In this document: piece after piece, positions 1-1,565 of the stretch
How the letters are laid out: each line of letters starts with the position of its first letter
How positions within the stretch are numbered: the first letter of the stretch is position 1
NCBI GenBank assembly: GCA_000004985.1
Contig: GG739379.1
Strand: one strand, 5' to 3'
Source of the DNA: Naegleria gruberi
Taxonomy: Eukaryota
DNA length: 1,565 bases
Program-made: the position numbers and the translations under genes
The notes under the pieces: model-generated
Database searches by the model: none
What the model saw: only the letters and a program-made list of their open reading frames with translations
What the model was told of the DNA's origin: nothing

Positions 1-554
1 TTCCAAATATTCTTGATGAATTGGTTACTGGTCAGAAGTGATGTAGAGAAGTATAAATCCAACTCAGGAAGAGGAGCGAGCATTATTGTGATAATAGTTG
101 CAAAATAGAGGTAAATGTCAGACAAGGTGATTATCTTGCTGAGTGGTAAAGAAGTCACATCCTCGTGTTCATCAACACTTTCTTCAGGTAGAGAAGGTAT
201 GATAACTTGATCGTCTTCATCAAGTTGTTCATTGTCTTCCGAATTATTTTGAACATGTTTTCCATACCACTCTTTAATGTGATCACCTTGGTCATCAAAA
301 TCCGTTGTTGATGGCTTGTGTGGATGGTTACATAGATCAACTATTCCATCCATTAACTCATCAGTCAAGTACTGCTCCAAACATTTAAGAGGAGTCATTG
401 AATTCAAGTGATTGCCATGACCAACAGGGCCTTCCGATACCTGTTTGAATGTCATCTCCTTTTCAAAAAATTCATAATCACTCCATCCCAAACTGTGTAA
501 AAATTCACTGTGTTGGTTGATGTCCTCTAGAGTAATATTATGAGGTTTGTTCAT
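1..554 (-). CDS. 5' portion of a protein-coding gene running off the left edge. It is 184 codons with no stop. The N-terminus is MNKPHNITLEDINQHSEFLHSLGWSDYEFFEKEMTFKQVSEGPVGHGNHLNSMTPLKCLEQYLTDELMDGIVDLCNHPHKPSTTDFDDQGDHIKEWYGKHVQNNSEDNEQLDEDDQVIIPSLPEESVDEHEDVTSLPLSKIITLSDIYLYFATIITIMLAPLPELDLYFSTSLLTSNQFIKNIW... The predicted product is a membrane protein with an acidic N-terminal domain of unknown family.
   Basis: I translated the minus strand by hand. The ATG is the reverse complement of 552-554 (context ctagtaATGaac, G at -3). An in-frame upstream TAA sits at 630-632, so 554 is the first in-frame ATG. There are 184 sense codons with no stop down to position 3. That is very unlikely by chance in ~65% AT DNA, roughly 0.93^184. 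The supplied track omits it because its stop lies outside the window. Confidence 0.8.
   Translation of the reverse strand, partial: MNKPHNITLEDINQHSEFLHSLGWSDYEFFEKEMTFKQVSEGPVGHGNHLNSMTPLKCLEQYLTDELMDGIVDLCNHPHKPSTTDFDDQGDHIKEWYGKHVQNNSEDNEQLDEDDQVIIPSLPEESVDEHEDVTSLPLSKIITLSDIYLYFATIITIMLAPLPELDLYFSTSLLTSNQFIKNIW
72..134 (-). other. Segment of gene 1 encoding a hydrophobic stretch, KIITLSDIYLYFATIITIMLAPLP. It is a candidate transmembrane helix.
   Basis: Hand translation gives about 21 residues that are mostly hydrophobic, following a 135-residue acidic hydrophilic region. I ran no formal hydropathy calculation. Confidence 0.4.
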
Positions 555-622
555 TACTAGTTGGTGTGATGATGAAGAAAATATACCATCCAAAGTTGAT
601 GCTGACTTTGTAAAAAACGGTA

Positions 623-631
623 TTTTTTTTT
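623..631. repeat. T9 homopolymer, a poly(dA:dT) tract.
   Basis: ggtaTTTTTTTTTac, counted directly from the sequence. Confidence 0.7.
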
Positions 632-658
632 ACAAAAGTGAACCAACTATACCACCAT

Positions 659-668
659 CCATATAAGG
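659..668. promoter_or_regulatory. CArG box, CC(A/T)6GG. It is a candidate Mcm1/SRF-family MADS-box site that overlaps a TATA-like ATATAA core.
   Basis: CCATATAAGG matches the consensus exactly. It is about 105 bp upstream of the gene 1 ATG. This is a motif match only. Confidence 0.3.
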
Positions 669-759
669 ACACGATCATCAAAATGAAAAAAACAAACTTC
701 AACATCTTTATGAAAATGCAAACACATTGCCCCATTCCGATGATTGCACCCAATAATCA

Positions 760-769
760 AGTTTAAACA
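760..769. repeat. Copy 1 of a 10-bp palindromic-core repeat, AGTTTAAACA (core GTTTAAAC).
   Basis: Exact 10-mer. It recurs at 850-859. Confidence 0.55.
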
Positions 770-770
770 G

Positions 771-776
771 CACGTG
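771..776. promoter_or_regulatory. CACGTG E-box, a candidate bHLH site of the Cbf1/Pho4/Tye7 class.
   Basis: It is an exact palindromic hexamer inside a local GC-rich patch, agCACGTGgcgagcctg. This is a motif match only. Confidence 0.3.
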
Positions 777-804
777 GCGAGCCTGATATGTTAATGAGAC
801 ACTT

Positions 805-813
805 AAAAAAAAA
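805..813. repeat. A9 homopolymer, a poly(dA:dT) tract.
   Basis: acttAAAAAAAAAgag, counted directly from the sequence. Confidence 0.7.
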
Positions 814-849
814 GAGAATTTAGATTCTATTCCATCATATTTATTTGAT

Positions 850-859
850 AGTTTAAACA
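850..859. repeat. Copy 2 of the 10-bp palindromic-core repeat, AGTTTAAACA.
   Basis: Exact 10-mer, 90 bp downstream of copy 1. Confidence 0.55.
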
Positions 860-1038
860 TTATTTAATTCAGGCTGCACTATCATTTGTAAGAAGAAACC
901 CTGATTTACGGTTCTCCTTTATTGAGGCTCTGTATGATTATATTCTTCACTATGAGCACAAAGAGATAGTGGGCTCTAATTTTGAGGTTTCGAACAATAT
1001 TGCATCTCATTGATAAGATCTGGTTTGGCGTGTCCTGT

Positions 1039-1053
1039 TGACTCAGCCAATCA
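1039..1053. promoter_or_regulatory. Composite of a TGACTCA (Gcn4/AP-1 class bZIP site) and an adjacent GCCAATCA (CCAAT box, HAP/NF-Y class).
   Basis: TGACTCA is at 1039-1045 and CCAATCA at 1047-1053. They sit 32-46 bp upstream of ATG 1085. These are motif matches only. Confidence 0.3.
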
Positions 1054-1070
1054 AAAAAACAATTGAATTT

Positions 1071-1118
1071 ATGAGTTGGCTCAAATGTTGTTGGATATTA
1101 AAAAGTTGCAAACAATAG
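1071..1118 (+). other. Possible 15-codon upstream ORF (MSWLKCCWILKSCKQ*). It is out of frame with gene 2 and overlaps its ATG at 1085.
   Basis: ATG at 1071 in frame 0 and TAG at 1116-1118. It matters only if the transcript start lies upstream of 1071. Confidence 0.2.
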
Positions 1119-1565
1119 ACTTGGCTGTGCATTTTATTAACAACACAAATTGTAGAAAAAAAGTGGAAAAGGGAATTTGTGTTGCCTTTTGTGCATTGAA
1201 TGGTAAGAAATTGTCTTCATTAATCAATTTCTCTTACTGTATCAATTCAACACTGCAAAATCAATTGAACAATATTGAATTTATGTGTGAGAAAGCCTTA
1301 ACACCAACTACTTATATTGAACATTGCAAACAGAATGGCTGGATAGATTCCAATTCATCTACAATCGATGGAGAGGAGTTATATTGTGATAATATGGTGC
1401 ATCATCCTGAAAGAGTTTTAAAAATTCTGGTTAGACCAATAGATTATGCACATGATGATGCAATGTTAGCTCTTAAAACTGAAAACTCTTCATATATTTC
1501 CTTAAGGTTCAGTTTCAAGTTTCTAACAGGAAAAGACAAACACAAAGATGATGGATACAAATCAA
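1085..1565 (+). CDS. 5' portion of a protein-coding gene running off the right edge. It is 160 codons with no stop. The N-terminus is MLLDIKKLQTIDLAVHFINNTNCRKKVEKGICVAFCALNGKKLSSLINFSYCINSTLQNQLNNIEFMCEKALTPTTYIEHCKQNGWIDSNSSTIDGEELYCDNMVHHPERVLKILVRPIDYAHDDAMLALKTENSSYISLRFSFKFLTGKDKHKDDGYKS... It is a hypothetical protein. The exact start codon is uncertain.
   Basis: I translated frame 2 by hand. An in-frame TGA lies at 1064-1066, the first ATG is at 1085-1087, and the frame is open through 1564. In-frame Met codons also occur at 1283 and 1394 as alternative starts. Arg codons are AGA x3 and AGG x1, which fits yeast-like usage. Confidence 0.7.
   Translation, partial: MLLDIKKLQTIDLAVHFINNTNCRKKVEKGICVAFCALNGKKLSSLINFSYCINSTLQNQLNNIEFMCEKALTPTTYIEHCKQNGWIDSNSSTIDGEELYCDNMVHHPERVLKILVRPIDYAHDDAMLALKTENSSYISLRFSFKFLTGKDKHKDDGYKS

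What the first reader, a model, noticed from the sequence alone, without database searches (positions are those of the whole stretch)
1..1565. The real gene content is two edge-truncated divergent ORFs that the ORF track misses, and the two listed ORFs are likely artefacts
Hand translation finds a 184-codon open frame on the minus strand (554 to 1) and a 160-codon open frame on the plus strand (1085 to 1565), both stop-free. In DNA this AT-rich, chance open frames of this length are improbable (order 1e-5 each). The listed ORF 155..340(-) starts with TTG (the reverse complement of 338-340 is TTG) and sits inside gene 1 on the same strand in a different frame. The listed ORF 538..753(-) also starts with TTG, overlaps the gene 1 start out of frame and reads through the T9 tract, which explains its FFIL-rich product. 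Use of TTG starts suggests the track was built with a prokaryotic table. The sequence itself looks eukaryotic: poly(dA:dT) promoter tracts, no Shine-Dalgarno sequences, a 530-bp intergenic region and AGA arginine codons.
Basis: seen in the sequence. Interest (0 to 1): 0.6.

Follow-up and report, generated by a model that had tools for sequence, protein, structure and literature searches.

The report
Amoeba transposase gene plus decayed gene fragment
The two long edge-truncated reading frames are real coding sequence from a Naegleria-like amoeba (not a fungus): one is the start of a piggyBac-type transposase gene and the other is a broken, front-truncated copy of an amoeba-specific gene, which is ordinary genome content.

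Summary
The minus frame is open from 629 to 3, with its first ATG at 554 (184 codons). The plus frame is open from 1067 to 1564, with an ATG at 1085 (160 codons). Only 0.44% of 5000 simulated windows had one frame this long, and none had two.

Both frames have homologues only in Naegleria genomes and a few ENA contigs, found by exhaustive HMMER after word-indexed searches found nothing.

- **Gene 1** aligns without gaps, at 44% identity (E 3e-38), to the N-terminus of N. lovaniensis piggyBac-type transposases. Those carry Pfam PF13843 and match the solved piggyBat and piggyBac structures.
- **Gene 2** matches the C-terminal region of a Naegleria-specific P-loop protein family of 650-1100 aa. 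Its homology continues upstream of ATG 1085, through an in-frame TGA (1064-1066) and a frameshift (about 1003-1006), back to about 906. It is most likely a 5'-truncated pseudogene, not an intact gene start.
- **The 530-bp "promoter"** is therefore partly transposon leader and partly decayed coding sequence.
- **The two listed TTG ORFs** are artefacts.

The parts
3..554 (-). First 184 codons of a piggyBac-type transposase gene (ATG at 552-554). The gene runs off the left edge of the window.
   Evidence: Gap-free alignment of 182 aa at 44-45% identity to N. lovaniensis P0001/P0007/P0008 residues 5-186 (phmmer E 3e-38; blastx). It is also 36% identical to ENA protein P0002 starting from residue 1. 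P0001 carries PF13843 DDE_Tnp_1_7 (E 3.5e-25) and matches solved piggyBat 9c0f and piggyBac 6x67.
3..146 (-). Start of the DDE_Tnp_1_7 (piggyBac) domain: window residues about 137-184, ITLSDIYLYFATIITIMLAPLPELDLYFSTSLLTSNQFIKNIW.
   Evidence: These residues align to P0001 139-186, which is Pfam profile positions from 30 onwards. A direct Pfam scan of the window protein gives no hit, because only about 48 domain residues are present.
555..790 (-). Putative 5' untranslated leader of the transposon. The extent is uncertain. It contains the T9 run (623-631) and a perfect 11-nt palindrome (607-617 / 626-636).
   Evidence: In related elements the ATG lies 241-242 nt inside the left terminal repeat. 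The alignment shows short shared blocks near the ATG: AAAGTCA(G/A)CATCA (window 597-609) and A(C/T)ACC(G/C)(T/C)TTTTT. This is an inference. It was not significant by blastn.
768..794 (-). Candidate transposon terminus. The minus strand reads TTAA-C-ATAT-CAGGCTCGCCACGTGC, 236 nt upstream of the ATG. Low confidence.
   Evidence: The position agrees with relatives (241-242 nt), and it is the only G+C-rich block in the spacer. However, the match to the relatives' terminal repeat ATATCCTCTACGCGACGGCAA is 11 of 21, and 97% of shuffled windows reach 12 of 21 somewhere. The other end of the element lies outside the window.
906..1004 (+). Decayed upstream coding remnant of gene 2, in the frame whose codons start at positions divisible by 3: ...RFSFIEALYDYILHYEHKEIVGSNFEVSNNIA. 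The frame is open 852-1010.
   Evidence: tblastx and blastx matches to family members on L008 (residues 147-177, E 7.8e-6) and L007 (112-142, E 7e-5). In the subject these are contiguous with the next segment.
1003..1006 (+). Frameshift (an extra 2 nt or a missing 1 nt in gcaTCTCattg) between the two homologous segments.
   Evidence: L008 residues 177 and 178 are adjacent in the subject, but the window changes frame here. Both sides are homologous, so an intron cannot explain the shift.
1007..1066 (+). Remnant in the gene 2 frame carrying the conserved SG(L/I/V)xxP motif (SLIRSGLACPVDSANQKNN), ending in an in-frame TGA at 1064-1066.
   Evidence: A single blastx match runs through the stop against P0003 (558-), P0005 (796-), L007 and L008.
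1067..1564 (+). Open 166-codon stretch (ATG at 1085) homologous to the C-terminal domain of a Naegleria-specific P-loop protein family. It runs off the right edge of the window.
   Evidence: phmmer E 7.7e-21 to N. gruberi P0003 (residues 578-743 of 817). Further hits are P0004, P0005 and P0006 and tblastn to L006, L007 and L008. Conserved residues include E28, C68, C81, W86, G96-E97, P118, H123, D125 and S143, and the GYKS tail is shared with the full-length members.
155..340 (-). Listed 61-aa TTG ORF: an artefact. It is an alternative frame inside the transposase coding sequence.
   Evidence: It is out of frame with the homology-supported frame. Codon-usage score is -0.064 bits/codon, third-position G+C is 66%, and only sub-threshold Pfam noise was found.
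538..753 (-). Listed 71-aa TTG ORF: an artefact across the gene 1 start and the leader.
   Evidence: It is out of frame with gene 1 and reads through the T9 run. It has no Pfam hit and no record in the gene collection.

Best explanation
The window is nuclear DNA of a heterolobosean amoeba (Naegleria or a close relative) and holds two things.

(1) On the minus strand, 554 to 3 and beyond the left edge, lies the 5' part of a piggyBac-type cut-and-paste DNA transposon. It comprises an untranslated leader and the first 184 codons of the transposase. These codons encode a clade-specific N-terminal region with the conserved block GHGNHLNSxTPxxCxEQYLxD, then an acidic stretch, then the first 48 or so residues of the DDE_Tnp_1_7 catalytic domain. 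If the rest of the gene is intact, the protein would excise and reinsert the element through a DDD active site, as in piggyBac. That step is inferred from relatives.

(2) On the plus strand, from about 906 to 1565 and beyond the right edge, lies a decayed 5'-truncated copy of a Naegleria-specific gene family. Full-length members have a Walker A/B P-loop NTPase followed by a conserved C-terminal domain. Only the C-terminal region is present here. It is interrupted by a frameshift (about 1003-1006) and an in-frame TGA (1064-1066). The 160-codon ORF from ATG 1085 is therefore the still-open tail of a pseudogene rather than a genuine gene start.

The transposon may have truncated this gene by inserting into or beside it. 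That is speculation. The two ORFs in the ORF track are by-products of a bacterial-code ORF finder.
For: Shown:
- Both frames are open and improbable by chance, and they have Naegleria-like codon usage.
- Gene 1 aligns over 182 aa without gaps at 44-45% identity to three N. lovaniensis proteins named 'PiggyBac transposable element-derived'. These carry PF13843 (E 3.5e-25) and match solved piggyBat and piggyBac transposases at E about 1e-14 to 1e-15, with the three catalytic-aspartate motifs visible.
- The start codons coincide with those of P0001 and P0002.
- The relatives are bona fide mobile elements. There are three copies at 97.9-99.6% identity with 18-21-nt perfect terminal inverted repeats, and one complete element on an ENA contig.
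- PiggyBac repeats are already reported in the N. lovaniensis genome. Naegleria genomes are 35-37% G+C (PMC6125883), and the window sits at about 30-40% G+C in 200-nt steps.
- Gene 2 gives E 7.7e-21 to N. gruberi P0003 residues 578-743, plus five other family members.
- Collinear homology is seen upstream of the ATG through a TGA and a frame change. Subject residues 177 and 178 are contiguous across the shift.
- Full-length members have 320-835 residues N-terminal to this point, including Walker A (SPSGxGKT) and Walker B (ICVDEAN). Only about 350 nt separate the remnant from the gene 1 start.
- A second copy truncated at nearly the same point, with a stop inside the homologous region, exists in N. 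fowleri.
Against: - The 166 codons after the TGA carry no further lesion. Either decay is recent or this part is kept as a short functional gene starting at ATG 1085.
- The two lesions could be sequencing or assembly errors, since I have no reads.
- The transposon end could not be located. The similarity to relatives' terminal repeats is at chance level, so it is not shown that gene 1 sits in a mobile element rather than being a domesticated copy.
- The catalytic residues lie outside the window.
- Identity to the nearest relatives is only 28-45%. The source organism is therefore inferred from the taxonomic range of the hits, not identified.
Confidence: 0.75

Rival explanations
1. Gene 2 is a functional short gene. 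After 5' truncation, the C-terminal domain is expressed on its own from ATG 1085, and the sequence at 906-1066 is only the dead leftover upstream of a new start.
For: There are 166 stop-free codons in AT-rich DNA. The codon-usage score is as high as for gene 1 (+0.229). All family-invariant residues are kept. AlphaFold gives a compact model (pLDDT 77). N. fowleri has an annotated 149-aa gene model (P0004) that begins at almost the same domain boundary.
Against: The -3 position before ATG 1085 is C, and no promoter evidence exists. In the N. fowleri copy the homology runs through the annotated stop, so that copy looks like a relic too. The domain continues beyond the window, so its intactness is unknown. 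No close relative is available to test for purifying selection.
Confidence: 0.17
2. This is the reader's model: two intact, divergently transcribed host genes of a fungus sharing a 530-bp bidirectional promoter with poly(dA:dT) tracts.
For: Both ATGs face away from each other. A/T runs plus CACGTG, TGACTCA and CCAAT motifs are present in 555-1084.
Against: All homologues are from Naegleria or unnamed ENA contigs, none fungal. Gene 1 is a transposase. At least 180 nt of the 'promoter' (906-1084) is degenerate coding sequence of gene 2, and TGACTCA and CCAAT lie inside it. Part of 555-640 aligns to the transposon leader.
Confidence: 0.04
3. The frameshift and the TGA are sequencing or assembly errors. 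The window then shows an otherwise intact family gene that a piggyBac insertion has interrupted, or whose upstream exons lie beyond the transposon.
For: The window looks like a short contig. The two lesions are single events close together. The rest of the frame is clean.
Against: The frameshift is not in a homopolymer. The region around the TGA is also about 8-11 residues shorter than in relatives. Homology fades upstream of about 885-906, and stops occur in all frames between 795 and 850.
Confidence: 0.04

Closest known systems
piggyBac superfamily DNA transposons (Pfam PF13843 DDE_Tnp_1_7), specifically the Naegleria lovaniensis piggyBac-like elements encoding XP_044543959 / XP_044552974
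   Same: The first 184 residues are collinear and 44-45% identical. They share the start position, the conserved N-terminal block, the acidic stretch and the beginning of the DDE_Tnp_1_7 domain. The leader length is similar if 768-794 is the terminus.
   Different: It is a distinct lineage, below the 50% identity used for clustering. The leader and putative terminus are not significantly alike. The catalytic core, the Cys-rich C-terminus, the second terminal repeat and the target duplication are outside the window and unseen.
Unnamed Naegleria-specific P-loop protein family (N. gruberi XP_002677006 and XP_002672518; N. lovaniensis XP_044543040; N. fowleri XP_044567331)
   Same: The C-terminal domain is 28-41% identical, with all invariant residues present (E, two C, W, GE, P, H-x-D, S) and the GYKS tail shared with the full-length members.
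   Different: The window copy lacks the whole N-terminal part with Walker A and B. It also carries a frameshift and a premature TGA. The family has no Pfam, NCBIfam, PADLOC or PDB relative, and its fold was not recognised.

Membership tests
piggyBac superfamily transposase (PF13843) | Significant sequence homology to proteins carrying the DDE_Tnp_1_7 domain, extending into that domain | tested here: met
   E 3e-38 with 182 gap-free columns to P0001. P0001 carries PF13843 at E 3.5e-25 over residues 139-432 and hits solved piggyBat and piggyBac.
piggyBac superfamily transposase (PF13843) | Direct Pfam match of the window's own protein | tested here: inconclusive
   No hit at E <= 1. Only about 48 of 349 profile positions fall inside the window. 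The relative P0002, which has the same region plus about 65 more residues, scores E 0.0026, below the Pfam cut-off.
piggyBac superfamily transposase (PF13843) | Catalytic D-D-D triad | not testable with these tools
   The triad lies beyond the left edge of the window. It is present in the relative P0001 (VDET, CTDSY and VDVADR, aligned to piggyBat).
piggyBac-like mobile element | Terminal inverted repeats | tested here: inconclusive
   At most one end can be in the window. The candidate at 768-794 matches the relatives' repeat at 11 of 21, which is chance level.
piggyBac-like mobile element | TTAA target-site duplication | tested here: inconclusive
   TTAA at 791-794 adjoins the candidate end, but four other TTAA sites occur in 555-1000 and the second end is unseen. 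The Naegleria relatives themselves are not flanked by TTAA.
Naegleria P-loop and C-terminal-domain family | Conserved C-terminal domain | tested here: met
   E 7.7e-21 to 7.8e-5 against four members. Invariant residues are conserved.
Naegleria P-loop and C-terminal-domain family | N-terminal Walker A/B NTPase module | tested here: not met
   No homology upstream of about 906. Only about 350 nt are available before gene 1.
Naegleria P-loop and C-terminal-domain family | Uninterrupted reading frame | tested here: not met
   Frameshift at about 1003-1006 and TGA at 1064-1066 inside collinear homology.
PD-(D/E)xK nuclease fold (my own lead for the gene 2 domain) | Structural similarity of the predicted model to known nucleases of this fold | tested here: not met
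   All named homologues are from Naegleria gruberi, N. lovaniensis or N. fowleri.
Bacterial or phage genes (ORF track) | Homologues or context in prokaryotic, phage or plasmid collections | tested here: not met
   No match in phage or plasmid collections, IMG/VR, JGI metagenomes or GTDB genomes. There are no tRNA genes, no Rfam match above threshold, and no excess of sigma-70-like promoter or terminator sites.

The most novel reading that the evidence does not exclude
The Naegleria clade of piggyBac-like elements, to which gene 1 belongs, may not use the canonical TTAA target. All four complete relatives end in ATAT-CCTCTACG...CGTAGAGG-ATAT, with no TTAA and no other flanking duplication. That would indicate a changed target specificity (ATAT or TA). 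Separately, the gene 2 family is an orphan P-loop protein that leaves copies truncated at a similar point (within about 40 residues) in two lineages, and it might itself be part of an undescribed mobile or conflict system.
Probability: 0.12. Interest if true: 0.45.

Novelty: new member of a known kind. Interest (0 to 1): 0.15.

Why it matters
The value is mainly practical. A bacterial-code ORF track on a short contig missed all real coding sequence and reported two artefacts. Word-indexed protein searches also found nothing, and only the exhaustive HMMER scan placed the window (versus 30).

Biologically, the window adds a divergent piggyBac-like transposase lineage and one more relic of an uncharacterised Naegleria gene family. 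PiggyBac repeats in Naegleria are already reported (PMC6125883), so nothing here changes current understanding.

Tried and rejected
- **Direct family and structure searches.** Pfam on the window proteins gave nothing. The solved-structure search gave nothing significant: no hit for gene 1 and only E about 1 for gene 2. NCBIfam gave nothing for gene 1 and a single sub-threshold hit (E 0.082) for gene 2.
- **Word-indexed protein search.** It found nothing for either protein.
- **Collection scans.** IMG/VR, JGI metagenome and GTDB genome scans with both proteins, and blastn against phages and plasmids, all found nothing.
- **Exact-product look-ups.** Look-ups of both long products and of the 71-aa ORF found no record, so the source sample could not be named.
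- **RNA and prokaryotic signals.** There was no Rfam match above threshold, no tRNA gene, and no excess of sigma-70-like promoter or terminator sites.
- **Locating the transposon end.** Similarity to the relatives' terminal repeats was at chance level. The degenerate PBLE terminal motif from PMC5381638 fits 5 of 6 positions, which is uninformative.
- **Full-length P0003 model.** It was too poor to use (pLDDT 45).
- **AlphaFold database library.** It was not available.
- **Annotating the gene 2 family.** PADLOC, NCBIfam, Pfam and a PDB profile search on the family gave nothing credible. The weak hAT-dimerisation (E 0.13) and SAM_Ste50p (E 0.067) hits are below threshold and I disregarded them.
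- **An intron as the cause of the frame change.** I rejected this because both sides of the shift are homologous and contiguous in the subject.
- **Linkage of the gene 2 family to piggyBac copies elsewhere.** None was seen in loci L001-L008.
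Full report
**Observation.** Translation of 554..3 on the minus strand gives 184 codons starting MNKPHNITLE. Translation of 1085..1564 on the plus strand gives 160 codons starting MLLDIKKLQT. The complete open stretches are 629..3 (209 codons) and 1067..1564 (166 codons). ATG 552-554 is the first ATG after the upstream stop.

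With a stop frequency of 0.062 per codon, the chance of such runs is 2e-5 to 1e-6 per start. Of 5000 first-order Markov simulations of the window, 0.44% had one open frame of at least 160 codons and none had two. The two ORFs in the track both begin with TTG, and both are out of frame with, and overlap, the minus-strand gene.

Codon-position composition supports the long frames and not the listed ORFs. A codon-usage score trained on 17 unrelated Naegleria genes agrees: +0.215 and +0.229 bits/codon for the long frames, -0.35 to -0.49 for their off-frames, -0.064 for ORF 155..340 and +0.094 for ORF 538..753.

**Finding relatives.** The following searches found nothing:
- Pfam, NCBIfam and the solved-structure search on the window proteins gave nothing significant.
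- The word-indexed protein search.
- Scans of IMG/VR, JGI metagenomes and GTDB genomes.
- blastn against phage and plasmid collections.
- Exact-product look-ups.

The exhaustive HMMER scan, run with the two products concatenated, gave six hits. P0001 (E 3e-38) and P0002 (E 8e-29) match gene 1. P0003 to P0006 (E 8e-21 to 8e-5) match gene 2. By cluster look-up, all named hits are from Naegleria lovaniensis, N. gruberi or N. fowleri, and P0002 is from an ENA metagenome contig. A profile search added one more N. gruberi protein and two more ENA proteins. The related loci have 36-37% G+C, and Naegleria genomes are reported at 35-37% (PMC6125883). The species is not identified, since the best identities are only 28-45%.

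**Gene 1.** The 184-aa product aligns without a single gap to residues 5-186 of three N. lovaniensis proteins that UniRef names 'PiggyBac transposable element-derived protein domain-containing' (44-45% identity). It also aligns from residue 1 of P0002 (36%). The annotated start codons coincide within two residues, which supports ATG 554 as the true start.

P0001 carries Pfam PF13843 DDE_Tnp_1_7 over residues 139-432 (E 3.5e-25). It matches the solved piggyBat (9c0f, E 3.8e-15) and piggyBac (6x67, E 3.8e-14) transposases, with the three aspartate motifs aligned. Window residues of about 137-184 (ITLSDIYLYFATIITIMLAPLPELDLYFSTS...) therefore correspond to the first part of the catalytic domain. 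Residues 1-136 form a clade-specific N-terminal region with a conserved block (GHGNHLNSxTPxxCxEQYLxD) and an acidic stretch.

The relatives are real mobile elements. The three N. lovaniensis copies share a 1874-bp unit at 97.9-99.6% identity, bounded by perfect inverted repeats (ATATCCTCTACGCGACGG...). ENA contig L002 holds a complete 1887-bp element with 21-nt perfect repeats. In all of these the ATG lies 241-242 nt inside the left end. PiggyBac repeats are already listed for the N. lovaniensis genome (29 copies; PMC6125883).

In the window, the leader near the ATG shares two short blocks with these elements. A G+C-rich sequence sits 236 nt upstream (minus strand TTAA-C-ATAT-CAGGCTCGCCACGTGC, window 768-794), where an end would be expected. 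However, its match to the relatives' repeat (11 of 21) is no better than chance. The element boundary is therefore an inference, not a result. Whether the gene is intact, mobile or domesticated cannot be told from 184 codons.

**Gene 2.** The product matches the C-terminal region of a family found only in Naegleria and the ENA contigs: N. gruberi P0003 (817 aa, matched at 578-743), N. lovaniensis P0005 (1110 aa, 835-981), N. gruberi P0006 (647 aa, 318-451) and N. fowleri P0004 (149 aa). Full-length members have a Walker A motif (SPSGxGKT) and a Walker B motif (ICVDEAN) far upstream of this region.

The homology does not begin at ATG 1085. A single blastx alignment runs from 1007-1013 through an in-frame TGA at 1064-1066. 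The conserved motif SG(L/I/V)xxP (window SLIRSGLACP) lies upstream of that stop. A further segment at 906-1007, in a different frame (RFSFIEALYDYILHYEHKEIVGSNFEVSNNIA), matches the residues immediately preceding in L007 and L008. In L008, subject residues 147-177 and then 178-369 are contiguous across the frame change. Both sides of the shift are homologous and adjacent, so an intron cannot explain it. The sequence gcaTCTCattg at about 1003-1006 carries a 2-nt gain or a 1-nt loss.

Upstream of about 885, homology is lost and all frames are closed. Only about 350 nt remain before gene 1, whereas relatives need 1-2.5 kb of further coding sequence. The simplest reading is a 5'-truncated, decaying copy. 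A comparable relic exists in N. fowleri, where homology starts at almost the same point and runs through the annotated stop codon.

The clean 166 codons after the TGA, with good codon usage, keep alive the rival that this tail is expressed as a short protein. I give that rival about 0.17.

**The spacer.**
- About 555-640 to 790: transposon leader (partly alignable; the extent is inferred).
- About 795-905: unassigned AT-rich sequence.
- 906-1084: degenerate coding sequence of gene 2.

The TGACTCA (1039-1045) and CCAAT (1047-1051) motifs lie inside the coding remnant. The T9 run (623-631) lies in the leader-like stretch and the A9 run (805-813) in the unassigned spacer, so none of these can be read as a shared promoter.

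**Verdict.** The content is a new, divergent member of known kinds: a piggyBac-like transposase in a Naegleria-type genome and a pseudogene fragment of a lineage-specific family. Interest is low.

The one point that might deserve a follow-up lies outside the window. The Naegleria piggyBac-like elements end in ATAT and are not flanked by TTAA, whereas TTAA is near-universal in the superfamily (PMC5381638).

Noticed in passing
L001 9759-11597, L004 9758-11632, L005 9758-11631, L002 169-2055: The related Naegleria piggyBac-like elements have perfect terminal inverted repeats of 18 nt (N. lovaniensis copies) to 21 nt (L002), ATATCCTCTACG(C/A)GACGG(CAA). They show no TTAA and no other duplication in the flanks. 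Only the palindromic ATAT at both ends is shared. If ATAT is the target duplication, the repeat starts with CC as in other piggyBac elements. TTAA is otherwise near-universal in the superfamily (PMC5381638).
   Followed up: partly
L001, L004, L005 (N. lovaniensis): Three copies are 97.9-99.6% identical, with open transposase genes, all three aspartate motifs and, in the 525-aa product P0007, a Cys/His-rich tail. The element looks recently active in N. lovaniensis.
   Followed up: partly
L005 10001-14775; L004 8054-9136: The 1338-aa gene model P0008 fuses the transposase to about 800 unrelated residues. Pieces of that extension recur in inverted orientation just upstream of the L004 copy. This suggests a second repeat family next to both insertions and a mis-merged gene model.
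   Followed up: no
L006 9941-10750 (N. fowleri VFQX01000009): Homology to the gene 2 family runs in one frame through the stop codon of the annotated 149-aa gene XP_044567331. It begins at almost the same family position as in the window, directly beside the start of an RdRP gene. This is a second 5'-truncated relic, or a mis-annotated gene.
   Followed up: partly
window 3-554 (-): The 184-residue N-terminal part of the transposase contains no arginine codon at all. Relatives have a few.
   Followed up: no
window 607-636: There is a perfect 11-nt inverted repeat, TTTGTAAAAAA / TTTTTTACAAA, with an 8-nt spacer, 53-82 nt upstream of the transposase ATG. Relatives have A-runs and T-runs around an ACCG core at a similar place. 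It may be a leader or promoter feature of the element.
   Followed up: no
window 771-776, 1039-1051: CACGTG, TGACTCA and CCAAT motifs are present. The last two lie inside the decayed coding remnant, so they are probably fortuitous.
   Followed up: partly
L007 321-2705 versus L008 1511-3932 (ENA ERZ27315067): Two paralogous copies of the gene 2 family, at about 78-81% nucleotide identity, come from one metagenome assembly. The bacterial gene caller split each into two or three ORFs.
   Followed up: no
methods: The word-indexed protein search missed every homologue that the exhaustive HMMER scan found at E down to 3e-38 (versus 30). In the later profile search, P0005 and P0006, although part of the query alignment, were not returned.
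   Followed up: no
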